A stretch of 64,000 nucleotides of DNA from Cyanophora paradoxa CCMP329 (lineage: Eukaryota > Plantae > Glaucophyta), in contig QPMI01000641.1 in assembly GCA_004431415.1 (NCBI GenBank), forward strand, positions 114,079-178,078, written 5' to 3'. The notes under the pieces are model-generated. The model did not search any database. It had not been told where the DNA came from and saw only the letters and a list, made by a program, of their open reading frames with translations. Positions 1-51,900 of the stretch are shown piece by piece. Within the stretch, counting starts at the first letter, position 1, and each line of letters starts with the position of its first letter. The translations under genes were made by a program, and so were the position numbers.

Positions 1-130
1 CGATTCCCTCAATGAGACTTTTAGCGTGTTGGTATGTGATCGTTTTTAGACCGCCTGTTACCGCTCTAATAAAGTAACGGTTGCGGTGGTCTTTCTCAGA
101 ATAGGTTGAGTATAGACGTTCACCGCCATC
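1..130 (-). pseudogene. 3' continuation of element A basic protein gene, split by the fold-back element
   Basis: Minus strand reads DGGERLYSTYSEKDHRNRYFIRAVTGGLKTITYQHAKSLIEGI, matching the paralog 40719..41480 (DGGERLYSTYSEKDHRNRYFIRSTTGGLKSVTYQYAKSLVDGI). Confidence 0.92.
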
Positions 131-160
131 TATATCTGCACTTTTGGAGTATTGCAATAC

Positions 161-510
161 CTTCGACAGAATCTGCGACAGAATCAGTCGATAAAATTCG
201 ACAGAATCGGTCGACCGATTCTGTCGCAGAATCAGTCGATCGACTGATTCTGTCGATCGACTGATTTTGTCGACCGATTCTGTCGCAGAATCAGTCGATA
301 AAATTCGACTGATTCGGTCGACCGATTCTGGCGCAGAATCAGTCGATCGACAGAGTTGGTCGATCGACTGATTTTGTCGACCGATTCTGTCGCAGAGTCA
401 GTCGATAAAATTCGACAGAATCGGTCGACCGATTCTGTCGCAGAATCAGTCGATCGACTGATTCTGTCGATCGACTGATTTTGTCGACCGATTCTGTCGC
501 TGAGTCTGTC
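161..510. repeat. Left subterminal array of TCGA/GTCGAC-centred palindromic repeats
   Basis: Recurring CGACAGAATCGGTCGACCGATTCTGTCG and GCAGAATCAGTCGATCGACTGATT units. Confidence 0.9.
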
Positions 511-950
511 GATCTGTTGTGTTTTTATTTTATTATACTTTCAACCTAATCTGCCGATCCATATCTTAATTATAATAAGCCAGTTTTATATATATTCTTA
601 ATAATTTGTGGCCTGGCCCTAGGCCTAGGCCTCGCCTGCGCATGCTGCATGCGCCTGCTGTCTACGCGTACGTATACTGGGGTCCTGAATCCTGATCGAT
701 ATATATATAATATATACTCTCTCGGGCCCAGGCCAGGCGCCTGCCCGGCTCCAGCAATCCAGCAGGCCCCGGGCGCGCCTTGTGCCCATCTGCCTCTGGT
801 TGCTCTGCAGTCTAGAACTAGAGACCGGCGGACTGTAAATTTAGCTATAGGCAGCACATCAACACTGAATCATGCAGCGTGGGGCCTAGCACGAGCAGGC
901 TGAAGGGAGAGGTACTAGGGATTCACATGTAGTACTAGTAATTAACTAGT

Positions 951-1326
951 AAGGGCGAGTCATAAGCCGGAGGATAACGGGTGAAGCGATGCGGCCCGCA
1001 CCAGGTCGTTCTGCACCTCGCCGCGCTCGCTGCGCCATGCATCGCGGTGAGCGAGAGCTCGAATCGAATGGAAAGAGGCAACGCCGGCACGCAGGCGGAT
1101 ATGCATGCGCACCTCGGCGAGGAGAGGAGAGGGAGAGGAGAGCACGAAAGCGGCTCTCCTAGGGCGCCCGGCAGCCCACGACCGCGACCGCTGATGGCAA
1201 GGGCGACGCGCTCGCTGCGCTTGGAGAGTCAATCGAAAGAAAAGAAGCGTCCGCGCCGGCGAACGACCGCACCTCGGCCCGAGAGGCCGAAAGCATGATC
1301 TCCGAGGCGCCCGGCAGCCCGCGACC

Positions 1327-1358
<32 letters not shown>

Positions 1359-4140
1359 CTCGCTGCGCTCGGATCGAAAGAGAAGAAATATGCGCGACAG
1401 CAAACGACCGCACCTGCGCCCGAGCGGCCGCAAGCATGAACTCCGAGGCCGATCCCAGCAGCCACCGGGCCACACGTCCGGAAAGCGGCACGCGCTGCGC
1501 TGCGCACGCCGCCGGCGTTACAACAAGATCAAAGGGCGAGCAGTGGAGACAAGAGCGAGCACCTGGCCTGCGGAAGAAGGCGCCGGGCGAACTGGGCGGT
1601 GGTGTTCTGCTCGCGGGGACCAGTCACGCCCGCTCCCTGGCCCGCCAGCGAAATGAGGGATTGAATCAAAGGAGAGGAAACGAAAAGCACCTTGCTTCGC
1701 CTCCGCAGCCGCCGCCTACGTTCCGCGCGTGCCTGTCAGCGGCAGAACGCCCACTGGCGACAGCCGCGGGAGGAATGGACAAAAAAGGCAACAAGGAGGT
1801 CGACAGCGATGCGTTCGCGAGCGTTCGCGGCCGCAACCGGGCGCCAGCCACCCTGAAGCAGCGCTCTGCGTTTGAAATCAGGCGGGCGACAGGCGGCGAG
1901 AGGCGCCAGAGGATGCAAGAGAGGACCTTCGAGCATCGTTCGCGCTGGAAGCCGACGAAGTTCGCCGCGGCGGCAGCAAGTCCGTTCGACCTGGTTTGAA
2001 AAGCGGAATCAGAGACGCGGGCAGCGCTGCGAGACCCCGGAGGAGCCAACGAACCGAGCCGTTGTGAGAGTGAAGCGCGTCCGCGCGGCAGCCTTCAGTC
2101 GAGGCTGCAGCTGCTGGCAGCAAGGCACATGAAGGCGCTTCAAGGCAGCAAGTTTGGGGTACACGACTGTTGGGAAAAGCCTTGTGAGGCCCACAGCGGC
2201 AGGGCCGCCGCGGCAGCCGCGCCGTAGTATAGCTTTCCGAAGCCGCCTGAAGCGATTGCCAACGGCTCGACCTGGCCCTCGGTCCAGAGCGCCTCCCGCT
2301 GCGGCACCTTCGCGCGTGCTCGCAGCACGCAGCGCGAGGCAGCTACAAGCACGTGAGCTTGTAACCATGGGTCCAGCTCCCCCCGTAGCGTCGTCCCTGC
2401 GCCGCGCCGATCCACAGCTAGATCGACGTCGACCAGCTGCAGGCCCGCAACCCCGCGCTGGGTGACTTCGCCGTGCTGGCCGGGCTCTTAAGCTTTGCGT
2501 GGCTTTCAGCTCACTTACATCCGCAGTATCTCTACCAGACAGCCCCGCGGTCGATTTGGAGGGTTGAGGTGCACACCGGCCGGCGGAGCTCTCTCACATG
2601 TTTCGGTTCATAGCGCGTCCTCTAAGATGCTCACGCAGTGCCTCTGACTCTGGACTGGCCGGGCGCTGCGTGAGCGCGCGGACCGACGCAACCTCCCGAT
2701 CGGCGGTCGCCTCGGGTGCGCCTACCAAGCACAGCATTTGGCCAGCGACGCGCGAGCGCGTAGCTGACGAGGCCCAGATCGCCAGGATGGGTGAGCCGCC
2801 TCGGATCGTCGCAGTTTGGGAGACATTCTTCTACACTGCCTAGGTGAGCCGGCTGGGCCCGTGCGCGTCGCTGACAGGACGCGTACGCGTCGCTGACGGG
2901 GCGCGCCGGTAACACAGGATACCGGAAGACGCCGCGTGAAGCCCAGGGGCTGGGGTGCGGCGGGTGGCGACGCCGCTCGCGGGGCGGGGCGGATCCGGAG
3001 GCGCGGCAGGCGGCCGCGTGAATTCCAGGATAGGGCGGAGGCGCTTCCTGCGGCGCTGCAGCTCGCGGAGGCGGGCGGGCGGCCGGAGGCGCGGCGCGTG
3101 GCGGCGCGGCTCGCCGGGCGGGGCAGAGGCGCGGCGGGCGGCCGCACGGCTCGCCAGGCGGGCCGGAGGCGCGGCGGGTGGCGTCGGCGGCTCGCCGGGC
3201 GGGGCGGAGGCGCGGCAGGCGGCGGAGGCAGCTTGCCGGGCCGGGCGGAGGCGCGGCGGGCGGCCGCGAGGCTCCGCTGGGCGGGGCGGAGGCGCGGCGG
3301 GCGGCGGCGAGGCTCGCCAGGTGGGCCGGGGGCGCGGCGGGCGGCGGCGCGGCTCGCGGAGCGGGATGGATCCTCGCGGGCGGCGGCGAGGCTCGCCGGG
3401 CGGGGCAGACGCTCGGCGGGCGGCCGCGCGCCTCGCGGGCCGGGGCGGAGGCGCGGCGGGCGGCGGCGCGCCTCGCTGGGCGGGGCGGAGGCGTGGCGGG
3501 CGGCGGCGGCGGCTCGCGGGGCGGGATGGAGGCGCAGCAAGCGGCGTCGGCGGCTCGCCGGGCGGGGCGGAGGCGCGGCAGGCGGCGGAGGCAGCTTGCC
3601 GGGCCGGGCGGAGGCGCGGCGGGCGGCCGCGAGGCTCCGCTGGGCGGGGCGGAGGCGCGGCGGGCGGCGGAGGCGGCTCGCGGGGCGGGACGGAGGCGCG
3701 GCGGGCGGCGGCGGCGGCTCGCGGACCGGGGCAGACGCTCGGCGGGCGGCCGCGCGGCTCGCCAGGCGGGCCGGGGGCGCGGCGGGCGGCGGCGCGGCTC
3801 GCCGGGCGGGCAGGGGGCGCGGCGGGCGGCGGCGCGGCTCGCCGGGCCGGGCGGAGGCGCAGCGGGCGGCCGCGAGGCTCCGCTGGGCGGGGCGGAGGCG
3901 CGGCGGGCGGCGTCGGCGGCTCGCCGGGCGGGGCCGAGGCGCGGCAGGCGGCGGAGGCAGCTCGCCGGGCCGGGCGGAGGCGGGGCGGGCGGCGCGCGGC
4001 TCGCTGGGCGGCCGGAGGCGCGGCGCGCTGCGGCGCGACTCGCCGGGCGGGGCAGAGGGGCGGCGGGCGGCGGTGCGCAGGCGCGGCGGCCGGCTGCGCG
4101 GCTCGCGGGGCAGGGCGGAGGAGTGGCGCGGCGGAGGCTC
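951..4140. repeat. Left long inverted-repeat arm (unique part plus GC-rich minisatellite at about 3070-4140)
   Basis: Reverse complement of about 6150-9695 with scattered substitutions and indels. The ORF track mirrors this (1736..1936- equals 8742..8942+). Confidence 0.9.
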
Positions 4141-4200
4141 GTGGGGAAGCCTGCAGATGCTCGCTCTGTACCGTAGTACTCTTGCGTAGATCATCGGATA

Positions 4201-6148
4201 TGCACCCCGCCCATTTCGAGGGTGGGAAATCCGAATCTGAAGTTCTCGTCAGCTCGTCCGTTCTCATATGCTCAGCGCGGCGACTTCGCACTTCTTTGCA
4301 CATGATCATGATCATGAGTCTCTAGCTGCCATTAAAAGAATACTGGGTTCCTGGCACATGTAAGCACCCGGAGATGATATCAGCGCCCCACTGTGTATCT
4401 GTAGAGTATTTGACGAGAAGCTCAGGGCTCCCGGGCATTGCGGCGGGGAAGAACGACTCCCTTATAGGGTTTCTCCCGAGATCAATTTTGAGAGCCGATT
4501 CCCAGTCCGCCCGTGCCTTTCCAGCTCAGATGCCAACGGATACGAGTCATTTGATAGCGTGTTAGATAGGGCCTCAACGTGATTACCGGCTGCCGGGCTT
4601 CTATTCGCATTTCCTGGCGCGCGGGAAGGCCTCAAAATGCCCGCCAAAAATAATGGCGACTTGCCCTGCAAAATAATGCACGGCACGCTACGAGCTAGCT
4701 TGCGGCCTGCGCCGACCTCAAAATCAAATCCAGCACTGTCAAGAACCCCCGAAAGCGTCTCATCGTCCGGATGTAACTTGTCAGATAAGATGCTATCCTT
4801 GGTGATTTCTGTCCTTGAGGCCTCTTTGGGGCAAGTTGACAGTCTCGGAGAGCTCGCTTGACCTGACGCCGCTCCGTCATCTTGGTCCGCGACTGACTCC
4901 ACATTTGCACCCCGCCCATTTCGAGGGTGGGGAATCCGAATCTGAAGTTCTCGTCAGCTCGTCCGTTCTCATATGCTCAGCGCGGCGACTTCGCACTTCT
5001 TTGCACATGATCATGATCATGAGTCTCTAGCTGCCATTAAAAGAATACTGGGTTCCTGGCACATGTAAGCACCCGGAGATGATATCAGCGCCCCACTGTG
5101 TATCTGTAGAGTATTTGACGAGAAGCTCAGGGCTCCCGGGCATTGCGGCGGGGAAGAACGACTCCCTTATAGGGTTTCTCCCGAGATCAATTTTGAGAGC
5201 CGATTCCCAGTCCGCCCGTGCCTTTCCAGCTCAGATGCCAACGGATACGAGTCATTTGATAGCGTGTTAGATAGGGCCTCAACGTGATTACCGGCTGCCG
5301 GGCTTCTATTCGCATTTCCTGGCGCGCGGGAAGGCCTCAAAATGCCCGCCAAAAATAATGGCGACTTGCCCTGCAAAATAATGCACGGCACGCTACGAGC
5401 TAGCTTGCGGCCTGCGCCGACCTCAAAATCAAATCCAGCACTGTCAAGAACCCCCGAAAGCGTCTCATCGTCCGGATGTAACTTGTCAGATAAGATGCTA
5501 TCCTTGGTGATTTCTGTCCTTGAGGCCTCTTTGGGGCAAGTTGACAGTCTCGGAGAGCTCGCTTGACCTGACGCCGCTCCGTCATCTTGGTCCGCGACTG
5601 ACTCCACATTTGCACCCCGCCCATTTCGAGGGTGGGGAATCCGAATCTGAAGTTCTCGTCAGCTCGTCCGTTCTCATATGCTCAGCGCGGCGACTTCGCA
5701 CTTCTTTGCACATGATCATGATCATGAGTCTCTAGCTGCCATTAAAAGAATACTGGGTTCCTGGCACATGTAAGCACCCGGAGATGATATCAGCGCCCCA
5801 CTGTGTATCTGTAGAGTATTTGACGAGAAGCTCAGGGCTCCCGGGCATTGCGGCGGGGAAGAACGACTCCCTTATAGGGTTTCTCCCGAGATCAATTTTG
5901 AGAGCCGATTCCCAGTCCGCCCGTGCCTTTCCAGCTCAGATGCCAACGGATACGAGTCATTTGATAGCGTGTTAGATAGGGCCTCAACGTGATTACCGGC
6001 TGCCGGGCTTCTATTCGCATTTCCTGGCGCGCGGGAAGGCCTCAAAATGCCCGCCAAAAATAATGGCGACTTGCCCTGCAAAATAATGCACGGCACGCTA
6101 CGAGCTAGCTTGCGGCCTGCGCCGACCTCAAAATCAAATCCAGCACTG
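4201..6148. repeat. Central tandem repeat, 705-bp unit, about 2.8 copies
   Basis: TGCACCCCGCCCATTTCGAGG starts at 4201, 4906 and 5611. Identical ORFs recur at 705-bp spacing. Confidence 0.95.
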
Positions 6149-6149
6149 A

Positions 6150-9100
6150 GAGCCTAGTGCCCGCCCGCCGCACCTCTGCCCCGCCCGGAGAGCCGCGCCT
6201 CCGCCCCGCCCGGCGAGCCGCCGACGCCGCTTGCTGCGCCCCCGGCCCGCCTTGCGAGCCGTGCGGCCGCCCGCCGCGCCTCTGCCCCGCCCGGCGAACC
6301 GCGCCGCCGCCCGCCGCGCCCCGGCCCGCCTGGCGAGCCGCGCGGCCGCCCGCCGAGCGTCTGCCCCGGTCTGCGAGCCGCCGCCGCCGCCCGGCCGCGC
6401 CTCCGTCCCACCCCACGAGCCGCGCCATAGCCCGCCGCGCCTTCGCCCCGCCCGGCGAGCTGCCTCCGCCGCCCGCCGCGCCTCCGCCCGCACGGCGGAG
6501 CCCCGCCGCCGCCCGCCGCGCCACATTCTCGCCCGGCGAGCCGCGCCGCCGCCCGCCGCGCCCCCGGCCCGCCTGGCGAGCCGCACGGCCGCCCGCCGCG
6601 CCTCCGTCCCGCCCCGCGAGCCGCCGCCGCCGCCCGCCGCGCCTCCGCCCCGCCCAGCCGAGCCTTGCGGCCGCCCGCCGCGCCTCCGCCCCGCCCAGCG
6701 GAGCCTCGCGGCCGCCCGCCGCGCCTCCGCCTGGCCCGGCGAGCTGCCTCCGCCTCCTGCCGCGCCTCCGTCACGCCTCGCGAGCCGCGCCGCCGCCCGC
6801 CGCGCCCACGGCCCACCTGGCGAGCCTCGCCGCCGCCCGCCGCGCCACAGTCTCGCCCGGAGAGCCGCGCCGCCGCCCGCCGCGCCCCCGGCCCGCCCGG
6901 CGAGCCGCGCCGCCGCCCGCCGCGCCCCCGGCCCGCCTGGCGAGCCGCGCGGCCGCCCGCCGAGCGTCTGCCCCGGTCCGCGAGCCGCCGCCGCCGCCCG
7001 CCGCGCCTCCGTCCCGCCCCGCGAGCCGCCTCCGCCGCCCGCCGCGCCTCCGCCCCGCCCAGCGGAGCCTCGCGGCCGCCCGCTGCGCCTCCGCCCGGCC
7101 CGGCGAGCTGCCTCCGCCGCCTGCCGCGCCTCCGCCCCGCCCGGCGAGCCGCCGACGCCGCTTGCTGCGCCTCCATCCCGCCCCGCGAGCCGCCGCCGCC
7201 GCCCGCCGCGCCTCCGCCCCGCCCAGCGAGGCGCGCCGCCGCCCGCCGCGCCTCCGCCCCGGCCCGCGAGGCGCGCGGCCGCCCGCCGAGCGTCTGCCCC
7301 GCCACTCGCCGCCGCCCGCGAGGATCCATCCCGCTCCGCGAGCCGCGCCGCCGCCCGCCGCGCCCCGGCCCACCTGGCGAGCCTCGCCGCCGCCCGCCGC
7401 GCCTCCGCCCCGCCCAGCGGAGCCTCGCGGCCGCCCGCCGCGCCTCCGCCCGGCCCGGCAAGCTGCCTCCGCCGCCTGCCGCGCCTCCGCCCCGCCCGGC
7501 GAGCCGCCGACGCCACCCGCCGCGCCCCCGGCCCGCCTGGCGAGCCGTGCGGCCGCCCACCGCGCCTCTGCCCCGCCCGGCGAGCCGCGCCGCCACGTGC
7601 CGCGCCTCCGGCCGCCCGCCCGCCTCCGCGAGCTGCAGCGCCGCAGGAAGCGCCTCCGCCCTATCCTGGAATTCACGCGGCCGCCTGCCGCGCCTCCGGA
7701 TCCGCCCCGCCCCGCGAGCGGCGTCGCCAACCACCGCACCCCAGCCCATGGGCTTCACGCGGCGTCTTCCGGTATCCTGTGTTACCGGCGCGCCCCGTCA
7801 GCGACGCGTACGCGTCCCGTCAGCGACGCGAACGGGCCCAGCCGGCTCACCTAGGCAGTGTAGAAGAATGTCTCCCAAACAGCGACGATCCGAGGCGGCT
7901 CACCCATCCTGGCGATCTGGGCCTCGTCAGCTACGCGCTCGCGCGTCGCTGGCCAAATGCTGTGCTTGGCAGGCGCACCCGAGGCGACCGCCGATCGGGA
8001 GGTTGCGTCGGTCCGCGCGCTCACGCAGCGCCCGGCCAGTCCAGAGTCAGAGGCACTGCGTGAGCATCTTAGAGGGACGCGCTATGAACCGAAACATGTG
8101 AGAGAGCTCCGCCGGCCGGCGTGCACCTCAACCCTCCAAATCGACCGCGGGGCTGTCTGGTAGAGATACTGCGGATGTAAGTGAGCTGAAAGCCACGCAA
8201 AGAACCCGGCCAGCACGGCGAAGTCACCCAGCGCGGGGTTGCGGGCCCGGTCGATCTAGCTGTGGATCGGCGCGGCGCAGGGACGACGCTACGGGGGGAG
8301 CTGGACCCATGGTTACAAGCTCACGTGCTTGTAGCTGCCTCGCGCTGCGTGCTGCGAGCACGCGCGAAGGTGCCGCAGCGGGAGGCGCTCCGGACCGAGG
8401 GCCAGGTCGAGCCGTTGGCAATCGCTTCAGGCGGCCTTGAAAAGCTGTACTGCGGCACGGGCCGCCGCGGCGGCCCTGCCGCTGTGGGCCTCATAAGGCT
8501 TTTCCCAACAGTCGTGTACCCCAAACTTGCTGCCTTGAAGCGCCTTCATGTGCCTTGCTGCCAGCAGCTGCAGCCTCGACTGTAGGCTGCCGCGCGAACG
8601 CGCTTCACTCTCACAGCGGCTCGGTTCGTTGGCTCCTCCGGGGTCTCGCAGCGCTGCCCGCGTCTCTGATTCCGCTTTTCAAACCAGGTCGAACGGACTT
8701 GCTGCCGCCGCAGCGAACTTCGTCGGCTTCCAGCGCGAACGATGCTCGAAGGTCCTCTCTTGCATCCTCTGGCGCCTCTCGCCGCCTGTCGCCCGCCTGA
8801 TTTCAAACGCAGAGCGCTGCTTCAGGGTGGCTGGCGCCCGGTTGCGGCCGCGAACGCTCGCGAACGCATCGCTGTCGACCTCCTTGTTGCCTTTTTTGTC
8901 CATTCCTCCCGCGGCTGTCGCCAGTGGGCGTTCTGCCGCTGACAGGCACGCGCGGAACGTAGGCGGCGGCTGCGGAGGCGAAGCAAGGTGCTTTTCGTTT
9001 CCTCTCCTTTGATTCAATCCCTCATTTTGCTGGCGGGCCAGGGAGCGGGCGTGACTGGTCCCCGCGAGCAGAACACCACCGCCCAGTTCGCCCGGCGCCT

Positions 9101-9695
9101 TCTTCCGCAGGCCAGGTGCTCGCTCTTGTCTCCACTGCTCGCCCTTTGATCTTGTTGTAACGCCGGCGGCGTGCGCAGCGCAGCGCGTGCCGCTTTCCGG
9201 ACGTGTGGCCCGTGGCTGCTGGGATCGGCCTCGGAGTTCATGCTTGCGGCCGCTCGGGCGCAGGTGCGGTCGTTTGCTGTCGCGCATATTTCTTCTCTTT
9301 CGATCCGAGCGCAGCGAGCTCTTCGCCCTCGCCCTCGCCCTCGCGGTCGCGGTCGCGGGCTGCCGGGCGCCTCGGAGATCATGCTTTCGGCCGCTCGGGC
9401 CGAGGTGCGGTCGTTCGCCGGCGCGGACGCTTCTTTTCTTTCGATTGACTCTCCAAGCGCAGCGAGCGCGTCGCTCTCGCCATCAGCGGACGCGGAGCGA
9501 TCGCAAGCTGATCTTCTGCCTCCTCTCCTCGCCGAGGTGCATAGCCGCCTGCGTGCCGGCCTTTTCCTCTTTCCATTCGATTTAAGCTCTCGCTCACCGC
9601 GATGCGCATGGCGCAGCGAGGGCGGCGAGGTGCAGAACGACCTGGTGCGGGCCGCATCGCTTCACCCGTTATCCTCCAGCTTCTGACTCGCCCTT
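6150..9695. repeat. Right long inverted-repeat arm
   Basis: Ends ...TTATCCTCCAGCTTCTGACTCGCCCTT, a near reverse complement of 951 onward. Its GC minisatellite is longer than in the left arm. Confidence 0.9.
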
Positions 9696-10221: not shown

Positions 10222-10565
10222 TATCGACAGATTTTGTCGACCGATTCTGTCGCAGAGTCTGTCGATAAAATTCGACAGAATCGGTCGACCGATTCTGGCG
10301 CAGAATCAGTCGATCGACAGAGTTGGTCGATCGACTGATTTTGTCGACCGATTCTGTCGCAGAGTCAGTCGATAAAATTCGACTGATTCGGTCGACCGAT
10401 TCTGGCGCAGAATCAGTCGATCGACAGAGTTGGTCGATCGACTGATTTTGTCGACCGATTCTGTCGCAGAGTCAGTCGATAAAATTCGACTGATTCGGTC
10501 GACCGATTCTGGCGCAGAATCAGTCGATCGACTGATTCTGTCGATCGACTGATTCTGTCGACCAA
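10222..10565. repeat. Right subterminal palindromic repeat array
   Basis: Same GTCGACCGATTCTGTCGCAGA units as 161-510. Confidence 0.9.
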
Positions 10566-13458: not shown

Positions 13459-13459
13459 T

Positions 13460-41516: not shown

Positions 41517-42404
41517 CTATGACCGTGAGAACGGCAGGTAGAGTCCCTCCAACTCTTTTATGACATTCTTCAATGCTTTTTTCGTCAGATCTTTATCATC
41601 TTCAGTAATCAGTTCAAGAGTCATCGACCAGTCGGTAGTAATGTCTGCTGTGGCTCCATTCCAGTAAGAAAGTCTCACATCTAGAGTCTCAACCTCAACC
41701 AAGCCATTCTGCTCGTGAACGATCATGGAATTATTCGATGAATCATATTTTAATAGACTGCCAACCGTTTGGTCAATCTCAATTTTCGCGATAGCATTGT
41801 TATCTCGTTTGTTATTGCTCACATATCTTCCTTTCAGTGGATCAACATGAAGAAGCAAATAGGAATTAAATAGTAGATCTAATGGCATTTCACTATCAAT
41901 GTAGTGAGCATAAGTAAAGGCTCCAACTGTGACATTAGATGATAGAGGACTCGATTGGTACAGTGTGTTAGCATTTTCAAAACCACAGAAATTGGCTAAG
42001 AGTTGAGTGTTCATAGTGATTGAGAATGGAACCTCACACATGAACCTTAGAAGCAATGTTGTGGGATCATAGGTTACATAGAAATGGCGAGTGTAAGTTC
42101 CGCCACCCGCTTGATTATAGGGCTGGGATCCAATGCGAGCGATCAGATAATTCACCAGTGAATCCGGTGTATATGCACCTCGGAGGACTTCGTTGTTTCT
42201 ATTCTTTGGGTTCCCAGCATTATCGAGTGTTTGTGTGGTGAGGGTTCCTACTTCAGAGAGGTTGTAAAGATTGTGAAACATCTCAAAGTTCGTTACTCGA
42301 CAGGCTCTGACCTTTTGGATCGCATAAGGGAGTCTGTATGTGAAATTAGTTGGGGTTCCATCCGATCGGTCCCTGGAATCAATATTGAGATAGTAACGCG
42401 TCAT
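41517..42404 (-). CDS. Minor capsid protein (penton), element B
   Basis: Paralog of 10961..11863. Confidence 0.8.
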   Translation of the reverse strand: MTRYYLNIDSRDRSDGTPTNFTYRLPYAIQKVRACRVTNFEMFHNLYNLSEVGTLTTQTLDNAGNPKNRNNEVLRGAYTPDSLVNYLIARIGSQPYNQAGGGTYTRHFYVTYDPTTLLLRFMCEVPFSITMNTQLLANFCGFENANTLYQSSPLSSNVTVGAFTYAHYIDSEMPLDLLFNSYLLLHVDPLKGRYVSNNKRDNNAIAKIEIDQTVGSLLKYDSSNNSMIVHEQNGLVEVETLDVRLSYWNGATADITTDWSMTLELITEDDKDLTKKALKNVIKELEGLYLPFSRS

Positions 42405-42456
42405 TCTGTTTAATAAAGCATTTTAAAAATTTCTTTTGGTATTTTAAACATAAGAG

Positions 42457-43683
42457 ATGGCACTCACTGGAACTACCCTGAAGGAACTCCTCGTAACTCC
42501 CGGTTCCGATCAAATTTATCTTTCCCCTGGTCTCCAAATCGGAACCAACCCCAAATACAAACCATTCCTCGAGCAAGTTCGTCCCCGGGGCAACACTTTT
42601 GGCTTCAAGAATACCGCTTACTTTGATCTACCTCGCAAGCAACTCCTTGCTGGTGTTTCGCTCTATTTCAAGATTGCCACTGGTGGTGGTGTAGCCTGCA
42701 CCCTCCCCAATGGTGGTTCTTCTTTTATTAATGAGGTCCGTTTCGTTCATGGTGGTTTCAAGTATATTATCCCTGGTGATTGGATCACTGTAAACGCCCT
42801 GGTCGATAATGATCACGCTACCATGAGCAGCATGTATGCTTCTCTCGGTTACTTCAAAGAGACAGATCGTGAAAGCACAGATGAAGCAATGGAATACATC
42901 GTTAGAATCCCCGCTGCTTTCTGGGAAGAAGCTTATTTCCCATTATGTACGCTAGCCGATATGCCAACAATCGAGGTTGATTTCCGTGATGCTGCGATTG
43001 TCCAAGTTCCGGCTGGTGGATCTGTAACCTTTGCGGATTGCTCTCTGATCTGCCAATTCGTAAACATTGCTTCGGCTGAGGCTGAGACACTCCTTAAAAT
43101 GGCGAACGAACAAGGTGGCATTCGCATCCCGATCACAGAGGTCATTCACAAGAAGACCCGAGCGCTCAAAACCGCTGATGCTGGTGAATCTGTTGAGGTT
43201 ACACTCGCTAATGTTTCTGGTCTGGTTCACTCGATTCTGATGACTGTTCGAGAGGTGAACAAACTTAACACCTACACTCACTCGGATTTCTGCGGTCATG
43301 AATCTGCTGTTAAGATTGATCAGTTCCAGATCTTCCACAACAATCGCTCCCTGGATATATCTAACAAACCCATTTCCGGTTTCCTCTCTGCTGTCAATCA
43401 CATTCCTTCTCACTACAAGGGTGTTACTGTGGGCAATACCACGTACGGATTCGAGTCTGGAAATGTTTACGGAATTGTTCTTTCCAAGTCTGGAAAAGAT
43501 TCGCTTCGGAACTCGGTTATGGGTTACCAGGATTTCTTCAACAGCAGCTCGAGTTACATGGATCTCACTGTTTCCGGATGCACTGATGCCGCTCCTGTTC
43601 AGGTTGATATCTATGCCCTCCGACACAATGTTATGGTACTTAATGGCTACAACATCTCTACCCTGAAAGTCTCGAACTTCTAA
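42457..43683 (+). CDS. Major capsid protein, element B (intact)
   Basis: 408 aa, between penton and ATPase, highly conserved with the A copy. Confidence 0.85.
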   Translation: MALTGTTLKELLVTPGSDQIYLSPGLQIGTNPKYKPFLEQVRPRGNTFGFKNTAYFDLPRKQLLAGVSLYFKIATGGGVACTLPNGGSSFINEVRFVHGGFKYIIPGDWITVNALVDNDHATMSSMYASLGYFKETDRESTDEAMEYIVRIPAAFWEEAYFPLCTLADMPTIEVDFRDAAIVQVPAGGSVTFADCSLICQFVNIASAEAETLLKMANEQGGIRIPITEVIHKKTRALKTADAGESVEVTLANVSGLVHSILMTVREVNKLNTYTHSDFCGHESAVKIDQFQIFHNNRSLDISNKPISGFLSAVNHIPSHYKGVTVGNTTYGFESGNVYGIVLSKSGKDSLRNSVMGYQDFFNSSSSYMDLTVSGCTDAAPVQVDIYALRHNVMVLNGYNISTLKVSNF

Positions 43684-43763
43684 AGTTCTTTTCTTTTGTT
43701 AGTGTAGGAAGCGCAATTATTTGTAGGTGTGTACTTTATTTTGTTTTTTATCTTATTACTGTA

Positions 43764-44522
43764 ATGGATAACACAGTAAATCTTGATGATATTCCGGAGT
43801 TCGATCCGAGTAAGACGGTTCGAATCCCGACAAGAATTTTGAATGTTGGTCGCTCCAATACAGGTAAGACAATGTTCACAAAATACTTACTTTACGAGCT
43901 TCGTGACAAGATCGATCAAATCGTTATATTTAGTTCAACAGCTTTTACTGGACAATTCAATGACATCACCCATCCCGATAACATCTATGAAGAGTGGGAT
44001 GATAACATTGTTTTGAGATTGATCAGTATGCAAAAGAAACGAATTGAGAATAACGAAAAGCGAAATAACCTAGTTATCATACTCGATGACATGATAGGTT
44101 CAAATTTGGATATGCATAATTCGGCTGTGTTATCTAAATTAGTAACGAGTGGAAGACATTATTCAATCTCGGTAATCTTTAATGTTCAGCGTTTGTGTTC
44201 TATTTCTACTACCATTCGTCGCAATGTGGAGTTCGTTGTATTTTTCAATATTCTTGGGAACGAGAAAGAGTTCAATTGCGCCTTTGATGAGTACAATGGT
44301 GGTTTGGATAAGAAGACCTACAAGGAATTGCATAGACTATGGGGTTATAATTACCAAACTGTCATAGCTAGCCTGCAAGGTTATGATATCAAGACCTATA
44401 CTGATAGAGCAGTACTCACTGATGATGATATAAAGGGCTTTAAGAAGTTTGTGAAGAGAAAAGCAATTAAAAGGAGTCAGATGGCTCGGATTCAGCGAGA
44501 AATGACCACAATCAGTGTGTAA
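43764..44522 (+). CDS. Packaging ATPase, element B
   Basis: GRSNTGKT, IILDD, SGRH...Q, IRRN. Confidence 0.92.
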   Translation: MDNTVNLDDIPEFDPSKTVRIPTRILNVGRSNTGKTMFTKYLLYELRDKIDQIVIFSSTAFTGQFNDITHPDNIYEEWDDNIVLRLISMQKKRIENNEKRNNLVIILDDMIGSNLDMHNSAVLSKLVTSGRHYSISVIFNVQRLCSISTTIRRNVEFVVFFNILGNEKEFNCAFDEYNGGLDKKTYKELHRLWGYNYQTVIASLQGYDIKTYTDRAVLTDDDIKGFKKFVKRKAIKRSQMARIQREMTTISV

Positions 44523-44766
44523 AAGGTCGATTTTTGAGAAATGTTGTATAATAAGGTAGCTTGAAATACTGTGGGGATTGCACAGTTGCGTAGAGCTTAA
44601 ACAGCGCTTCAAACCGATATGCAGAACGTTGCGAGATCATAATCTGGTGATGAGATACAAGCGTTTGAAGATGCCGATAATCGATTTACCGAAACTTCGG
44701 TGAAACGTGAGCGAAACTTGAACCGTGAGATCATATACCCTACTATGGTTTATTCCCCGGGTTTTC

Positions 44767-44853
44767 ATGGCGCATTTAATGGCGCATTTAATGGCGCATT
44801 TAATGGCGCATTTTATGGCGCATTTTATGGCGCATTTTATGGCGCATTTGATG
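44767..44853. repeat. 12-bp tandem repeat ATGGCGCATTT(A/T) x7
   Basis: Directly visible. Confidence 0.95.
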
Positions 44854-44911
44854 AAAAGTCCCTACTCTGTGGCATGAACCAATCAGAAGCCAGCAAATTT
44901 AAAATTAATAT

Positions 44912-45000
44912 ATGAGGTATTATCTGAGATATAATCTGAGGTATTATCTGAGATATAATCTGAGGTATTATCTGAGGTATTATCTGAGATGTTATCTGTG
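44912..45000. repeat. 12-bp tandem repeat TGAG(G/A)TAT(T/A)ATC, about x7
   Basis: Directly visible. Confidence 0.9.
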
Positions 45001-45145
45001 ATGTAAACCTGGGGAGAAGTTGAAGGGGGATACATTGAAAGTCAGTGAGCCAATCAGATTGCGTCACACATATATACATATACATCATGACAATATACAC
45101 ATCGCCGTGATCGTCATAATCTCCCGAGTCACGTGGTATGTCATA

Positions 45146-46349
45146 CAAGATCCGTGCTCCTGCGGAGCACTAAGTACGGCGAAGCCTCGCGGACGCCCTC
45201 GCGGTTGTCACAGTAGGCCTATAGGGCACTCAGCGACTGGCCAGCGGCCTGGCCGATCGCGAACAGGTTTCTGGCTGGAAGCTGGCTGGCTGACGGCCAG
45301 TCCAGCTACCGCTGGCCGGCTAGAGGAATATAACTAGAGGAATATTAATGTACTGAGGAAATAAAGGGAGGCCGGAGCAGGTTGAGATTAGAGGAGATGA
45401 ATTATATATAATATTGTTGAGAGGGAGGCCCGGGAGGGGCAAGGTTCTCGCGGCCAGGCGCATGCACAGAGCTTGCGAATCGCTTAAACAGAATCTTGAA
45501 TGCATATAGCTATAGCATCGATGTGCGGGGCTGCGGAGCTCGAGGCGAGGGCGCGCGGAAAGATGTGCAGGTCCATGCAGGATCGCATTTTCGGGGTCGG
45601 CTGGGTCCTCGCGGCCCGTCGCATACGCAAAGCGTGCGGAAGACTTTGCCTACATCTTAAATGCTTATGCTATCGTTCCGCGCATGCGCCGCGGCGTGGG
45701 CGCGCGGAAAGATGTCAGGGCGCGTGCAGGATCGAATTTTGGCCGTCGGGTACCTTCCTGCGCTGTTCCGGCTCCGAAAAGCGGATTTCGGGGGTGCGCA
45801 GGCCCTGCTATGTCCATGCGCGCCAGTACGCATCGATTGCGCGCGTCGCGGGACCGGGCGGGACCGGCTAGCGCTGGATCAAATTTTCGGCCGACTCTTC
45901 GCACTGGAGCGTCGACGGCGCTTGAAATCGAGCTTGCGGCGATGCGCTCGCCCTCGCGCGGCATTCTGTATCGTTCTGGGGCGTCCCTGGCGCGATTTCG
46001 TCGCGGGACCGGGCGGGACCGGGTCCCACCTTCTGACTCGGACTGCATTTGTCGGAGGTTAAGTACCGGAATTGATCCAGAGGGAAATTCGATTTTCGCG
46101 CGACGCCCACGGGCGAGCGGTCGTCTTAGGGGAGCCACGACGCTAAAAATGGATCTAGAGAGGTCTGTGGGGGTTAGGGTAGCTGAGTATTAGCGGCAAT
46201 CGCGTCCGTGTCGAGGCAGAATTAATAATTCGTCCTCGAGGGAGTGCGACGCGGAAATTATTTAGCAGGGGGGATCTTGAGTGGAAAAAAAGGTTAAAAA
46301 AGGAATTTATATCGGCGGTTTTTGGGTTTGAGAAAGAGGCTTCGCCTGA
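45146..46349 (-). mobile_element. Non-autonomous Helitron/Helentron-like element (1204 bp)
   Basis: Minus strand A|TC...CTTG|T with no TSD. Hairpin GTGCTCC-TGC-GGAGCAC at 45154-45170. 11-bp asymmetric IR GGCGAAGCCTC at 45178-45188 and 46336-46346. GC-rich within AT-rich flanks. Confidence 0.75.
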
Positions 46350-46644
46350 TATATCATATACATATACATCGTCATCATGACGTCATATATGAATATATAT
46401 CACATATACACAAATTGATATGTTATAGGTTTGACTATAAATCGATTTCCTATGATATATATGATATATATTACAGTGATATATTGACGTATATACGATT
46501 CAAAAACAATTAAAATTCTATTGTTTTTATTGTCGTTTCTATTGTTGTTTCTAGTGTAACAAATACAGTAAAAAATCGTTCAAAAAATACAGTAAAAAAT
46601 GAGAGGTTTTTCTTTCGAGGTTTTAACTAAACTTACTTAGTTAT

Positions 46645-47049
46645 TCATGGGAGACACGGCGGATAAAAAGGATATAACTTCGATTAAATATAATTAATCG
46701 AGATAATGATATAACTTCGATAAATAAGATTTAAGATATAACTTCGATAAATTCGATTTTTGTTACTGAGGCTTACTGAGATTTAGTGAGATTTGGAATT
46801 GGGTTACTGTGAATGGTTTGTTTTTCTTGGGAATTGTTTTGGAGACACGGCGCATAAAAAAGATATAACTTCGATAAGATATAATTAATCGAGATTATGA
46901 TATAACTTCGATTAATTCAATTTTGGTTACTGAGGCTTACTGAGATTTACTGATATTCAAGATTGGGTTACTGGGAATGGTTTGTTTTCTGATTTGTTTT
47001 TGATTTTTTTCGCGGGTATTTTTTTGGAGACACGGCGCAGTGCTGAGCT
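46645..47049. repeat. Right TIR of element B
   Basis: Reverse complement of 13054-13458. Confidence 0.95.
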
Positions 47050-47143
47050 GGCGCCGGTTCAGGTAGATATTTACGCGCTCCGTCACAATGTCATGGTTCT
47101 CAATGGCTATAACATTTCCACACTGAAAGTTTCTAACTTCTAA
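47050..47143 (+). pseudogene. 3' end of element A MCP
   Basis: Reads APVQVDIYALRHNVMVLNGYNISTLKVSNF*, identical to the C-terminus of B's MCP. Confidence 0.95.
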
Positions 47144-47279: not shown

Positions 47280-48032
47280 ATGGATATAGATTTAAACGAT
47301 ATTCCCGAATTCGAGCCGGTAAAAACAGCTAAACTCCCTTCGCGTTTTTTGCTTGCTGGGCGCTCTAATTCTGGTAAGACAACATATTGTAAATATCTAC
47401 TTTATGAACTGCGGGATAAGATCGATCACATTGTTATATTTAGTTCCACTGCGTTCACTGGTCAATTCAGAGATATTACGCATCCCGATAACATCTACGA
47501 GGAATGGGATGATAATGTAGTAGTGAAACTCATTAGTATGCAAAAGAAACGAATCGAGAACAATGAAAAGCGCAATAGTTTAGTAATTATACTTGACGAT
47601 ATGATAGGTTCTAATTTGGATATGCATAATTCAGCTGTGTTATCTAAACTGGTAACAAGTGGAAGACATTATGGTATAACTGTTATTTTCAATGTCCAAC
47701 GTATATGCTCTATTTCTACTACAATTCGTCGTTACGTGGAATTCGTGGTATTTTTCAATATTCTTGGGAACGAAAAAGAGTTTAACTGTGCATTCGATGA
47801 ATATAACGGTGGATTGGACAAGAAGACTTATAAAGAACTACATAGACTTTGGGGTTACAATTACCAAACAGTCATAACTGGACTGCAAGGTTATGATATA
47901 AAGACCTATACAGATCGGGCGATTTTAACAGATGATGATATGAAGGCTTTTCGCAAGTTTGTGAAGCGACGAGCGATAAAAAAGAGAGTATCAATACGAA
48001 TAAGTAACGAGCCGACAACGATAACGGTGTAG
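47280..48032 (+). CDS. Packaging ATPase, element A
   Basis: GRSNSGKT, IILDD, SGRH. Paralog of 43764..44522. Confidence 0.92.
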   Translation: MDIDLNDIPEFEPVKTAKLPSRFLLAGRSNSGKTTYCKYLLYELRDKIDHIVIFSSTAFTGQFRDITHPDNIYEEWDDNVVVKLISMQKKRIENNEKRNSLVIILDDMIGSNLDMHNSAVLSKLVTSGRHYGITVIFNVQRICSISTTIRRYVEFVVFFNILGNEKEFNCAFDEYNGGLDKKTYKELHRLWGYNYQTVITGLQGYDIKTYTDRAILTDDDMKAFRKFVKRRAIKKRVSIRISNEPTTITV

Positions 48033-48760
48033 ATGGAGAGCGCTTTTCACGAGCGTTCCCGCGCTTTTTTCAGATTTTAGAGGCGATGATCTGGTGAAGA
48101 GTTACGATTATTTCCGTACTTCCGGTAGTTCGTGTATATATGCACATATATATACACTTTTTTACCAGAAATTCCGTTCGCGTCAAACGGCAATCAGGAA
48201 ATTTCATCTGCATCATCAATGAGTCTTCTGCAACCTATCGACATCAACACTCATTCGCAGAGTTCCATCGACCTCAACACTGATTCATAATTCTATCTGC
48301 ATCAACAATCATGGACATCATCGAAATCATAGAAAGTCAAGCCAGAGTACGAGTTTAGTATCGAATACAACAATCACTGATGTTGCGTATCGAATACAAC
48401 AGTCATCACTCTTCGAAATCGTCATCGAATCTGATTGGTCGTCATCGAAATCCATCAGACAACTTTTGACATATATATCACATATATACACAAAACCTCC
48501 GCATTCCTGGTTTGGTCAAACGGAATTTCTGGTGAAAATGTGTGTATATATATGCACATATATACACGGAGACGTCGACTCTATCGCCGGCAAGTCAAGT
48601 TGAGTCAACCGATAAACGCATGTAACTCTTCACCAACTGCTCCGTTTCTAATTCTGAAAACAGATTCGGAATCGTCGCGACGCCCTCTTCAAGGTTCGAG
48701 TATAATCTAAGAAGTCGTGCATGATTTATTTTTATTAAACTTTTGGTTAAAAGTTACTGT

Positions 48761-48918
48761 GAATCGTGGGAGAAGAGGCATTCTGCCGACTTAACGAAGT
48801 CACCGCGCGAAAAAAGACGAATTCTTACTGTGTATCGAGCGGAATCGATCGTCTTACTGTTTATTGTGCGGAATCGTGGGAGAAGAGGCATTCTGCCGAC
48901 TTAACGAAGTCACCGCGC
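48761..48918. repeat. 48-bp direct repeat x2 in the right terminal region of element A
   Basis: GAATCGTGGGAGAAGAGGCATTCTGCCGACTTAACGAAGTCACCGCGC at 48761 and 48871. Confidence 0.9.
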
Positions 48919-51900
48919 ATAAAAAGATGAATTGGGTCGAGTTAATCGATGAAGTTGTATTATATCGATTGTGAAACCGAAATTATCGATCGTGACACTG
49001 AGCCTTACGGTGATTTTCGATTAGATTCGATGCTGTTACGGTGAATCGTAAGGATCCGCGGATTTAATTGTTGGAGACACCGCGCCAAGCTGAGCTTATG
49101 CATGCATATGAACCGTTGCAGACCGCGGGGAGAGTTCGAAGTCAAGATGCTCTATGACGCAAACACGGCTGTGCGAATTTTGAACGAGCTCGCCGATGCT
49201 GGCAAGGTCGGTCCCAAACTCTTTGCAATCTTCAATCTTTCACGTACATCAGATTCTGGGAGCGTTCGAGGTGTGCGACTCGGACCCAGAGAAACAGCGC
49301 AAGCAGTTTCATGCCATGTATTGCGCTTTGGTGAGCATGCGCAATGTTAGAGTAATGGACGCGCAGACGGCTGGCTAACTCATTATCTCGCGCATAACCT
49401 CGAGCTCAGTTCCAAAATATGAAGGTCAGACAATCGAAATCTATGAGCTGCGGAATGCTTGTCCTGACGCGGCACGCAGCTCGCTGGCGCATCCGACGCG
49501 CATAAGCCAAGGAAAGCGAGCTCGGACGGCTTCGAGCTCGAGCTCGAGTGGGCAAGCGGCTTCGCCGCCTACTCAGCGGCCGCGGTGCGCATTCGGAATT
49601 GCAGCCCGATTAATATTTCTCAGAAGTGCATGCATATAGTTTAGTCAACGTTACACACTCTTGATTTAAATTTGTGACGGGGCCAGCAGGGTATGGAACG
49701 GATTCGCTCGTTCCTCATCTCCTCTGATGCCTTCAAAACAGCTAAACCGGTGCGTGCAGGGGTACCCGCTTCGCTATAGAAGCTGGACCTTACATTAATT
49801 CTTCGCGTGCTTTCAGAGCGAGCCTCTCGGCGCACAACTCCAATCCCTCTTTCTAGAAAGCTCTCGGGGCATGGACACCCGGCGCCGGCCGCGGTTCTTC
49901 CTGATATTCGCCCACAAAGACGACTTGACGCCTCTGACCCGTGACACGGTCCGAAACTTGGAAACGCGAGCATATGCAGGTTCCTCCCTCTGTATTTCAT
50001 ACCACGTGATGCTGTTTTTCGGGCTTTCAGGTCGTGAAATCGAAGCACCGTCGACGACGTTCCGGGCCAGCCCCGGACGAAGCAACTCGCGATCGTCCCG
50101 CGGCCGCCGCCGCCGCGAGTTTGGACTCAGCTCCCGGCTCCCACTGCACGCCAGCGACGGGGGCCATTCCATCTGCAGTTGCAAGGATCAGTGATCACTC
50201 GTGTACGTATACTCTCCTCCGGATCGGATCCGAGCTTCGAATCCCCTCATTAGTCAATTCAGACAACTCCGCCGAGCGCATGGTCGCCCGCGATATCGAT
50301 CTCCGTCAGGCGCCCGCTGCAGCAGATGCAGCCGCGGCCGTTCGTGTGGAGCTCGAGACCCCAAACTCCGCTAAGCTCGACCAATTGCGGTACGTAAACG
50401 GTCGAGCGTAATTGCGAGCGCGGATCCGGATCCCGGATTCCACCACCTGGAGACCTCGTTTAATTTCTGGCTTGTGCGCATGCAGGCCTGATATTGACAG
50501 AGTTTCCCCGCTGATCGCCGAGACTGCGAGCTGCTTCGAATTTCCCGAAGACAGTACGGTTGAGTTCAACCGCATCTTCCGCCTCGCGCAAATTCTGAAG
50601 GTCAGCGCCGGTGCACTCGCTTCGATCGAAAGGCGATGGCGCACCAGAGCTCACGGTCAGCGACAGCTGCGACACTTGCACAATCCGGACGATGGAATCT
50701 TCAAATACAGTTCGCTGGTAGAGGATTACCAGACTCTGTGGGCGAATGCCGACCCCGGCTTCAACGTGGCAGCCTGCAGGAAACTCGTGGCGTGCGCGCG
50801 CGTCTACTCATGCGTGATCGGCTTTTCTGTGCGCCTGCCGTTGCACCCGGCCCACTGTGCAGCGCCGCATGCGCAGTTTTTACTTCAAGGAATCTCTGCC
50901 GCGCTCGAGTGCGAGCATCTGCAAGTGCAAGAGCGATCGCGACGGTCCGGGCGGCTTCGAGGGCGCGGTGAGCAGCCTTTTATTTATTCCTTTCCACGCG
51001 CCGCCAATGTGCAACTCGCCGCCACGCGCTGCGTCCAACCACAATTCGCAACGCGCGAATTCGAATTCGAACGCGCGCAGCTGCACGCGGACGTGGAACG
51101 CTGCGCCGGCGCCGCAATCTCAGACTGCTCCGCAACCTGCGACCCCGACCGCGGCCTGCGGCTGCTCCAGAACCTCCTCGCGGCGTTCACGGGTGCGAAT
51201 TCGAAGGCCGGAGCAGAAGCAGCCAGCAACCCAGTTGCGGATCCAGAGGTTCGACCCGGAACTTGTGCCGCGCTTTCGATCGCTCAGAATTTGAAGACGT
51301 CGACCCTCCCTGCAGCAGGTTTCGCGGCCGAATGAAAGCGCGAGCGCCTGCGAAAAAGGCGAAATTCACGATCAGCCTTTCCTCGGCCTTCCTCCCAAGA
51401 TAGTGCCCAAGTCGTTCGCGCGTACGCCGACTTCCTTTACACATGAGCGAACCCGCTGCAGACCGATCTGACTTGACCGCAGCTCCTGTCCGCGAATCCG
51501 AAGGGAGCGTTTGCTCTGTTCAAGACCAGGGCGCCTCTTCCCCTAAGATCCCCTCTCAAGTCCTGGAGCTTGCCCGCAAGCTCAAAGAAATCATCGAAAA
51601 CGGGCTCAGCGCGGTGCAGAGCCCTATGCATATGCTTACGCTCCGATCTAAACCAACATTAACATGGCGCATTCGAAATTCGCATTCGCAGTGCCCAACG
51701 CTCTCGTGTGGAATAATTGGAGAGGAACTTCAGAAAGCGGGCTTCGACATCCAAGTAAATCGAAGCGCTAATCGAGAAATCAATCGAAGCACTAATTCTT
51801 TTTGTTGCTCTCTTCTCACAGAGCATCTTGACTGCTCACCCTGAAGTTGAGGAGACGATCCAAGATTCGTTGTGCATCCCACGAGGTACACATGCGCACA

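What the first reader, a model, noticed from the sequence alone, without database searches (positions are those of the whole stretch)
1..49096. Three-level nest of Polinton-like viruses, each inserted in a core gene of the previous one
Seen: C (TSD AATGAC) splits B's replication gene. B (TSD GGCGC) splits A's major capsid gene. A third insert (TSD GCCATC) splits A's basic protein gene. Every junction restores the frame exactly, so the nesting is unambiguous. Established: rve integrases give 5-6 bp TSDs. Inference: these viruses preferentially integrate into other PLVs, either in the chromosome (AT-rich or silenced sink) or in co-replicating viral DNA. That would be a virus-on-virus hyperparasitism or superinfection-knockout system, or a host trap locus analogous to piRNA clusters.
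Basis: partly seen in the sequence, partly recalled or inferred. Interest (0 to 1): 0.92.

Follow-up and report, generated by a model that had tools for sequence, protein, structure and literature searches.

The report
Nested viruses in an algal genome
One small integrated DNA virus sits inside a second, which sits inside a third, in what is likely a glaucophyte alga; the stack is real, but it is likely an ordinary pile-up in expendable, probably silenced viral DNA rather than proof that these viruses hunt each other.

Summary
The nest is real. C (16052-37306, TSD AATGAC) splits B's helicase gene; B (13054-47049, TSD GGCGC) splits A's capsid gene; D (131-10595, TSD GCCATC) splits A's basic gene. 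Frames fit, and public contigs carry the empty C and D sites. Corrections: D is a non-coding, IS3EU-like foldback element, not a virus; only two insertions are virus-in-virus; A's left end is outside the window; a ~1000-copy Helitron2-like insert in B was missed. B is Tlr1-like, a sister of A; C is Polinton-like with pPolB. The host is probably Cyanophora paradoxa, where 366 such capsid genes (~7% of the genome) are already catalogued. At that load random insertion gives ~10-14 nested elements and an 18-27% chance of a three-level nest (49-100% if only part of the host tolerates insertions); core genes fill 76% of B. CpG-biased mutations suggest methylation. Targeting is neither shown nor needed; I could not run the genome-wide test. 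Three-level nests are published for Halocafeteria, and this scan noted similar pile-ups in a chytrid. Open leads: B's target mimics its own TIR motif; B's depth differs twofold between runs.

The parts
1..130 (-). Element A: 3' part of the basic-protein gene, with one TSD copy GCCATC at 125-130
   Evidence: Frame and match to B's intact gene
131..10595 (.). Insert D: non-coding foldback element, 30-bp TIR with TA..TA ends, 6-bp TSD; IS3EU-like ends
   Evidence: empty-site contig
163..513 (.). D: 107-bp array (3.3 copies); a second array at 10223-10563 in direct orientation
951..9695 (.). D: inverted arms of about 3.2 kb (95% alike, 41-bp GC-rich repeats) around a 705-bp tandem unit at 4198-6148
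10596..10928 (-). A: 5' part of the basic-protein gene (TSD copy 10596-10601)
   Evidence: 82% amino-acid identity to B's gene
10961..11863 (-). A: predicted minor capsid (penton) protein
   Evidence: 70% to B's; profile of four pentons hits PBCV-1 P1, E 1e-4
11916..13053 (+). A: 5' part of the major capsid gene (TSD GGCGC 13049-13053)
   Evidence: 89% to B's capsid
13054..47049 (.). Element B: Tlr1-like virus, sister subfamily of A, same orientation; 11.5 kb without C and F; TIRs 13054-13458 and 46645-47049
13460..14521 (-). B: rve-type integrase, intact
   Evidence: Weak Pfam rve hits; 25 homologs, conserved D/D/E columns
14521..16051 (-). B: 3' part of the replication gene (superfamily 1, Dda-like helicase); TSD AATGAC 16046-16051
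   Evidence: Pfam AAA_19, Viral_helicase1; PHROG Dda-like E 2e-18
16052..37306 (.). Element C: 21.3-kb Polinton-like virus; TIRs 16052-16428 and 36930-37306
16803..24186 (-). C: fibre-like genes (C1q, H-lectin, phage tail repeats)
24121..25695 (+). C: patatin-like phospholipase
   Evidence: Pfam E 9e-26
26170..28098 (.). C: two predicted minor capsid genes (26170-27114 minus, 27097-28098 plus)
   Evidence: 21% to B's penton
28139..29599 (+). C: major capsid protein
   Evidence: 26% to B's capsid, E 1e-26; Atlas capsid clusters 0.98
29708..30448 (+). C: A32-like packaging ATPase
   Evidence: Pfam Pox_A32
31044..31607 (-). C: HNH-AP2 endonuclease
32331..33518 (-). C: rve integrase
   Evidence: Pfam rve_3 E 5e-9
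33490..36816 (-). [quoted passage not shown]
   Evidence: Pfam DNA_pol_B_2 E 4e-52; motifs
37307..39870 (-). B: 5' part of the replication gene, with degenerate polymerase-like motifs (TSD copy 37307-37312)
   Evidence: Motifs by pattern only; no profile, homolog or fold support
40719..41480 (-). B: basic protein, intact
   Evidence: no family hit
41517..42404 (-). B: predicted minor capsid protein
42457..43683 (+). B: double jelly-roll major capsid protein, intact
   Evidence: Model pLDDT 64; Foldseek to PBCV-1 capsid E 9e-16
43764..44522 (+). B: A32-like packaging ATPase
   Evidence: Pfam Pox_A32 E 1e-15
45145..46348 (-). Insert F: very high-copy non-coding element with 11-bp subterminal inverted repeats and a terminal hairpin (Helitron2-like)
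   Evidence: Depth about 1000-1900x single copy and joints that skip it; anatomy
47050..47143 (+). A: TSD copy GGCGC and 3' end of the major capsid gene
47280..48032 (+). A: A32-like packaging ATPase
   Evidence: Pfam; 83% to B's
48123..48606 (.). Segment G: MITE-like, absent from some A copies
   Evidence: Joint 48122 to 48607 in 3 of 3 DNA runs; inverted repeats
48630..49096 (.). A: right terminal region, ending like B's TIR; single-copy host DNA follows
   Evidence: contigs 49068-52391 at single-copy depth

Best explanation
This is a real stack of successive insertions (A first, then D, B, C and F into the viral DNA) that likely persists because integrated, probably methylated viral DNA is a large and expendable target in a genome heavily loaded with such viruses, not because the viruses seek each other out. 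Shown: the order of nesting, the duplicated target sites, the intact integrases of B and C, the empty sites for C and D in sibling copies. Inferred: B's and C's own rve integrases made their insertions; D and F were moved by host transposases in trans; insertions in host genes are removed by selection while those in a silenced provirus are kept; each hit disables the outer copy (A cannot make capsid, B cannot make its helicase) but siblings elsewhere can, so C is the only complete virus left in the stack.
For: Probable host holds 366 capsid hits, est. 7.3% of 99.94 Mb (PMC10120064 Table S4). Sequential random insertion with N = 366 gives 10-14 nested elements and P(three levels) 0.18-0.27; 0.49-1.0 if 50-20% of host DNA tolerates insertion. 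Core genes are 76% of B. Non-viral D and F sit in the same DNA. A itself is inserted next to single-copy host DNA, and one C-family end in an RNA contig is followed by GC-rich letters found on nothing in the stretch laid. CpG-context excess 30 of 49; methylation of repeats and viral genes in the probable host. Halocafeteria: 14 nested elements including a three-level case, read as landing 'where they are tolerated'. No sequence-specific integration found for mavirus-like elements (PMC8547959).
Against: With the stricter count of 156 elements (PMC12220804 Table S6), P(three levels) falls to 0.03 under uniform insertion and 0.09-0.43 with selection. B is nearly identical to its siblings (0-2 differences over 1.3-2.1 kb), so it had little time to collect both C and F. 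Counting only the roughly 40 copies of these subfamilies, a three-level nest is very unlikely. In Halocafeteria 14 nested exceeds the 3.4-4.0 of my uniform model. B's target resembles its TIR motif. The host is inferred from homologs, not proven.
Confidence: 0.62

Rival explanations
1. True insertion bias: the integrases favour viral DNA, either silenced proviral chromatin or free genomes replicating together after reactivation, so C may have entered a free B and the composite then entered A.
For: Two hits in a very young B copy; B's integrase and TIRs are intact; C has about 3 near-identical copies whose sites are unknown; B depth differs about twofold between runs; precedent of strong bias in Ngaro type 1, 91% inside endogenous virophages (PMC8547959); excess nesting in Halocafeteria.
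Against: No chromodomain hit in either integrase; A sits in unique host DNA; host-type elements D and F show the same pattern; the load alone can explain the nest.
Confidence: 0.24
2. Sequence-guided capture: the A/B integrase prefers palindromic targets that mimic the motif repeated in its own TIRs, which would steer it to kin DNA.
For: Both flanks of B match the TIR motif GACACGGCGC at 8 of 10 bases, in inverted arrangement across the palindrome CGGCGCCG; in A/B coding DNA only one other such match was listed; the left junction folds into a 12-pair hairpin, z -3.8; 0.37% of sites have a 6-base flank complementary to the TIR start.
Against: Found after the fact, one site. A's right flank has no such match (z +1.3). 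Window-wide the motif with 2 mismatches is no more common than chance (58 vs 67).
Confidence: 0.07
3. Host trap locus like a piRNA cluster that collects viral copies to make guide RNAs.
For: Several unrelated elements in one locus; methylation signature.
Against: The 3.8 kb of right flank laid is single-copy and an intron-rich methyltransferase gene lies about 5.6 kb away; all inserts are inside A, none in the flank laid; no small-RNA evidence seen.
Confidence: 0.04
4. Assembly artefact: repeats from different loci were joined into one stack.
For: All parts are multi-copy; contigs bridging the internal junctions were not among the rows shown.
Against: Exact 5-6 bp duplications at exact TIR ends at three sites, with frames that fit, are not made by mis-joining; at most the linkage between real junctions could be chimeric.
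Confidence: 0.03

Closest known systems
Nested PLVs and virophages of Halocafeteria seosinensis (bioRxiv 10.64898/2026.07.28.741278)
   Same: Viral elements inside one another (5 PLVs, 9 virophages), one three-level case, transposons inside the viruses, TIRs and TSDs at the borders; authors call viral DNA a hotspot where elements are tolerated.
   Different: Other host lineage and capsid groups; here two of the three viruses are sister subfamilies and no virophage is involved.
Endogenous capsid-encoding elements of Cyanophora paradoxa (Bellas et al. 2023, PMC10120064; Bulzu et al. 2025, PMC12220804)
   Same: A listed capsid differs from B's at about 7 of its first ~300 residues (read by eye); a 65% relative of C's capsid is in that proteome; patatin and H-lectin fibres are reported for glaucophyte PLVs.
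   Different: The word 'nested' does not occur in the main text of PMC10120064; PMC12220804 uses it for retrotransposons inside PLVs. Nesting in this species was not found described.
Tlr1 elements of Tetrahymena and PLVs with Tlr1-like helicase (Krupovic et al. 2016, PMC5499653)
   Same: B has major and minor capsid, ATPase, rve integrase and a long superfamily 1 helicase protein, and no protease or intact polymerase.
   Different: The inactivated-polymerase domain is seen only as motifs; capsid group differs; no relative of the N-terminal part was found.
Polintons/Mavericks
   Same: C has pPolB, rve integrase, ATPase, capsids, long TIRs and a 6-bp TSD.
   Different: No maturation protease found; TG..CA ends rather than the AG-type ends recalled for Polintons; PLV-type fibres and patatin.
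Ngaro retrotransposons in EMALEs of Cafeteria (Hackl et al. 2021, PMC8547959)
   Same: A mobile element nested in integrated viruses.
   Different: There the preference was counted genome-wide (91% for type 1); here no preference is measured and the inserts are viruses and DNA transposon-like elements.

Membership tests
Polinton-like virus, Tlr1-type (B) | Double jelly-roll major capsid protein | tested here: met
   Foldseek to PBCV-1 capsid E 9e-16, prob 1.0; Atlas 0.98
Polinton-like virus, Tlr1-type (B) | Minor capsid protein and A32-like ATPase | tested here: met
   ATPase Pfam E 1e-15; penton profile to PBCV-1 P1 E 1e-4, weak
Polinton-like virus, Tlr1-type (B) | rve integrase, TIRs, 5-6 bp TSD | tested here: met
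   (Pfam scores below cut-off, but conserved catalytic columns)
Polinton-like virus, Tlr1-type (B) | Superfamily 1 helicase | tested here: met
Polinton-like virus, Tlr1-type (B) | Inactivated pPolB fused to the helicase | tested here: inconclusive
   Motif-like strings in the right order; no Pfam, BLAST, homolog or usable model
Polinton-like virus, Tlr1-type (A) | Left TIR, TSD, integrase, replication gene | not testable with these tools
   Outside the window; no genome held
Polinton/Maverick (C) | pPolB and rve integrase | tested here: met
   motifs intact
Polinton/Maverick (C) | Capsid, ATPase, long TIRs, 6-bp TSD | tested here: met
Polinton/Maverick (C) | Adenovirus-type maturation protease | tested here: not met
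   No protease family among C's ORFs scanned; a very divergent one could be missed. C is filed as a pPolB-bearing PLV, not a canonical Polinton
Polinton-like virus (D) | Capsid, ATPase, integrase or replication genes | tested here: not met
   Only repeat-derived open frames; 0 of 3 tested have Pfam hits
IS3EU/GingerRoot non-autonomous element (D) | TA..TA termini and 6-bp TSD | tested here: met
   definition from PMC10045372 passages
IS3EU/GingerRoot non-autonomous element (D) | Autonomous partner with the same ends and an IS3EU transposase | not testable with these tools
   No genome held
Helitron2-type non-autonomous element (F) | Short inverted repeats of about 11-18 nt and a 3' stem-loop, no TSD | tested here: met
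   11-bp repeat and 7-pair hairpin, no TSD found; definition in PMC11417382 passages
Helitron2-type non-autonomous element (F) | Insertion between T and T | tested here: inconclusive
   Borders uncertain by a few bases (joints 45127 or 45144 to 46349)
Virus-targeting hyperparasite | Insertion sites enriched in viral DNA beyond its share and beyond selection | not testable with these tools
   No genome; contigs lose junctions between repeats; published coordinates not held
piRNA-cluster-like trap | Locus-derived small RNAs, repeat-dense surroundings | tested here: inconclusive
   Right flank single-copy; small RNA not available

The most novel reading that the evidence does not exclude
The A/B family is still amplifying in culture and its integrase, or C's, favours viral DNA: B chose a palindrome that mimics its own TIR motif, and C entered a very young B copy, possibly as free co-replicating DNA. 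Viruses would then knock out their kin and rivals by insertion, a virus-on-virus parasitism with a measurable targeting rule.
Probability: 0.15. Interest if true: 0.72.

Novelty: new member of a known kind. Interest (0 to 1): 0.33.

Why it matters
As it stands, it is a clean, base-exact example of how endogenous viruses are retired by later insertions in a virus-rich alga, and it shows that capsid counts can overstate the number of working proviruses. It also points to a testable system: a cultured alga with a very young, about 20-copy family whose target sites can be aligned to ask whether nesting comes from selection or from targeting, a question that the Halocafeteria preprint leaves open. 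If targeting were found, it would add a new layer of conflict among the small viruses thought to defend protists against giant viruses.

Tried and rejected
TIR patterns found nothing in metagenome or viral contigs; capsid queries found no related loci (one search gave one spurious bacterial match); the integrase alignment gave one contig, L001, with a similar helicase-integrase pair but no capsid. Homolog searches for B's capsid and for the replication N-terminus were blank; none of 10 window proteins is in the collection. The single-sequence model of the replication N-terminus was unusable (pLDDT 30). No joint from a TIR end to another viral gene was listed (1 joint; 15 of 18 shown), but this is no test: the window's own C-in-B junction did not break the B contig, so such junctions are dropped. 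No RNA holder was listed; one RNA run was laid and gave 10 small pieces, which says nothing on expression. Capsid coordinates for the probable host are not in the held part of the cut supplement. AT-rich target preference was tested and rejected at local scale: the D, B and C sites fall in the 69th-100th GC percentile of A/B DNA, only F and G in AT-rich parts. TIR identity as a clock was rejected: inner C has 5 of 377 mismatches, outer B 1 of 405. Earlier findings of this scan held nothing for this genome or look-alike DNA (one search gave one unrelated hit).


Full report
Anatomy. The first 49 kb are AT-richer (40-45% GC) blocks set in a host of about 64% GC. Self-comparison shows two long inverted pairs, 13054-13458/46645-47049 and 16052-16428/36930-37306, and 76-80% DNA identity between 10.6-13.0 kb plus 47.2-48.0 kb and 41.1-44.5 kb. 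So A and B are sister subfamilies in the same orientation: orthologs are 70-89% identical in protein and differ at 43-51% of codons for shared residues. B carries integrase, a long helicase gene, an 85-codon ORF, a basic protein, a penton, a capsid and an ATPase. B's capsid model (8 sequences, pLDDT 64) matches the PBCV-1 capsid at E 9e-16. This is the gene set of Tlr1-like elements (PMC5499653, passages). C is a 21,255-bp element with pPolB, rve integrase, HNH-AP2, ATPase, capsid, two pentons, patatin and fibre genes, and no protease hit.

Junctions. All three TSDs are exact and all three split genes fit in frame when the halves are read separately. Contigs of 2 of 2 public DNA runs cross the C site with a single AATGAC and go on into the other half of B's gene, and cross the D site. 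These prove empty sibling copies. The B site's empty allele and the window's own internal junctions were not among the rows shown (6714 and 416 pieces hidden). The A-host junction lies at the start of 3.3-kb single-copy contigs in 3 of 3 DNA runs, with under 31 letters on the A side, so it is touched rather than bridged.

Corrections. D is not a virus. It has a 30-bp TIR with TA..TA ends and a 6-bp TSD, as described for IS3EU (PMC10045372, passages), two 107-bp arrays, 3.2-kb inverted arms and a 705-bp tandem core, and no recognisable gene. The chain of viruses is therefore A > B > C, two virus-in-virus events. B also holds F, 1.2 kb at 1000-1900 times single-copy depth, skipped by joints in 3 of 3 DNA runs and built like a Helitron2-type element; A holds a variable segment G.

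Copy numbers (ratios of single-contig depth to the host flank; rough, the tool warns that depth is not copy number). B: about 10 in X1 but 22-29 in X9 and X19; A: about 4-5; the near-identical C group: about 3 in all three runs. B contigs match the window with 0-2 differences over 1.3-2.1 kb: a very recent burst.

Host. The nearest relative of C's capsid (65%) is annotated in Cyanophora paradoxa, and a published capsid from that species is nearly B's (PMC10120064, supplement Table S2 rows, compared by eye). The flank holds a methyltransferase gene cut into many short exons. I infer a glaucophyte host. Table S4 of that paper gives 366 capsid hits in 99.94 Mb, 7.3% of the genome at their assumed length; PMC12220804 Table S6 counts 156 capsid genes in its glaucophyte set (one row seen).

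Is the nest more than chance? Landing in a core gene is expected: core genes fill 76% of B, so three of three has p = 0.44. In a sequential model with 366 elements of 15-20 kb, uniform insertion gives 10-14 nested elements and P(at least one three-level nest) = 0.18-0.27; with half to a fifth of host DNA tolerant, 0.49-1.0. With 156 elements the values are 0.03 and 0.09-0.43. With only the about 40 copies seen here it is near zero, which is the wrong null for 'any virus in any virus' but shows that the answer depends on the true load. The window was also picked from very many. For Halocafeteria the same model gives 3.4-4.0 nested against 14 reported, an excess that either selection or bias could make.

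Sink or target? For a silenced sink: 30 of the 49 transitions among the 80 variant rows shown (342 more rows hidden, transversions left out) are in CpG context against 32% at third codon positions (p = 3e-5), and the window copy has the deaminated base in 22 of the 30; CpG methylation of repeats and viral genes is reported for the probable host (PMC12344493, abstract and passages). Against AT-seeking: the three large sites are GC-rich for A/B DNA. Against chromatin tethering: no chromodomain hit in either integrase, although 3 of 25 distant homologs have one. Against a trap locus: the flank laid is single-copy. For a real bias: a very young B has already taken two inserts; Ngaro elements show that such bias can exist (PMC8547959, passages); and B's target is an 8-bp palindrome whose two flanks each match B's repeated TIR motif at 8 of 10 bases, though A's flank does not.

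Prior art. Three-level nests of PLVs and virophages are described for Halocafeteria, with viral DNA called a hotspot where elements are tolerated (sections 5 and 8 read, discussion passages; its supplements are closed and may hold target-site data). Nested retrotransposons in PLVs are described for cryptophytes (passages). My searches found no paper on nesting in Cyanophora and no genome-wide test of PLV-into-PLV preference; the library lacks most subscription journals. Papers 10.1101/2025.10.09.676808, 10.64898/2026.10.13.758929 and PMC8502044 were seen as passages and added nothing on nesting. The AG-type ends of canonical Polintons are recalled, not checked.

Verdict. Observation real with corrections; best read as tolerated accumulation in silenced proviral DNA (0.62), with true bias as the main rival (0.24). 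A new member of a known kind; interest 0.33.

Noticed in passing
window 13460-16051 and 37307-42425: B-family contig depth relative to single-copy flank is about 10 in run X1 but 22-29 in X9 and X19, while C stays near 3 and A near 4-5: possible copy-number difference between cultures or free replicating B DNA.
   Followed up: partly
window 13044-13074 and 47050-47060: B's target is the palindrome CGGCGCCG; both flanks match B's thrice-repeated TIR motif at 8 of 10 bases and the left junction forms a 12-pair hairpin. A's right flank is a different palindrome (49097-49108).
   Followed up: partly
window 45145-46348: Helitron2-like non-coding element at about 1000-1900 times single-copy depth, inside B's non-coding arm; most B copies lack it.
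   Followed up: partly
window 131-10595: D is an unusual 10.5-kb non-coding foldback: outer 30 bp inverted, subterminal 107-bp arrays in direct orientation, 3.2-kb inverted arms, 705-bp tandem core. Its mobilising partner is unknown.
   Followed up: partly
window 1-124: The empty-site contig for D is 711 nt in both runs and its unlaid part is 124 nt, exactly the distance to the window's first base; coincidence or a structural branch at the window start.
   Followed up: no
window 33300-35100: This part of C differs by about 4% from the majority of its family while 35116-36879 is identical to a 3-copy group: mosaic C copies.
   Followed up: no
window 40117-40378 and 44677-44920: Joints show B copies lacking the 85-codon ORF region and a 242-bp repeat-bearing stretch.
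   Followed up: no
window 54700-57970: Host class I SAM methyltransferase gene broken into many short exons by C-rich introns, about 5.6 kb from A's end.
   Followed up: no
L001:1621-7657: A contig binned with a giant-virus genome carries a long superfamily 1 helicase with an internal HNH-like motif near a B-type integrase and no capsid gene: a transpoviron- or Tlr1-like element.
   Followed up: partly
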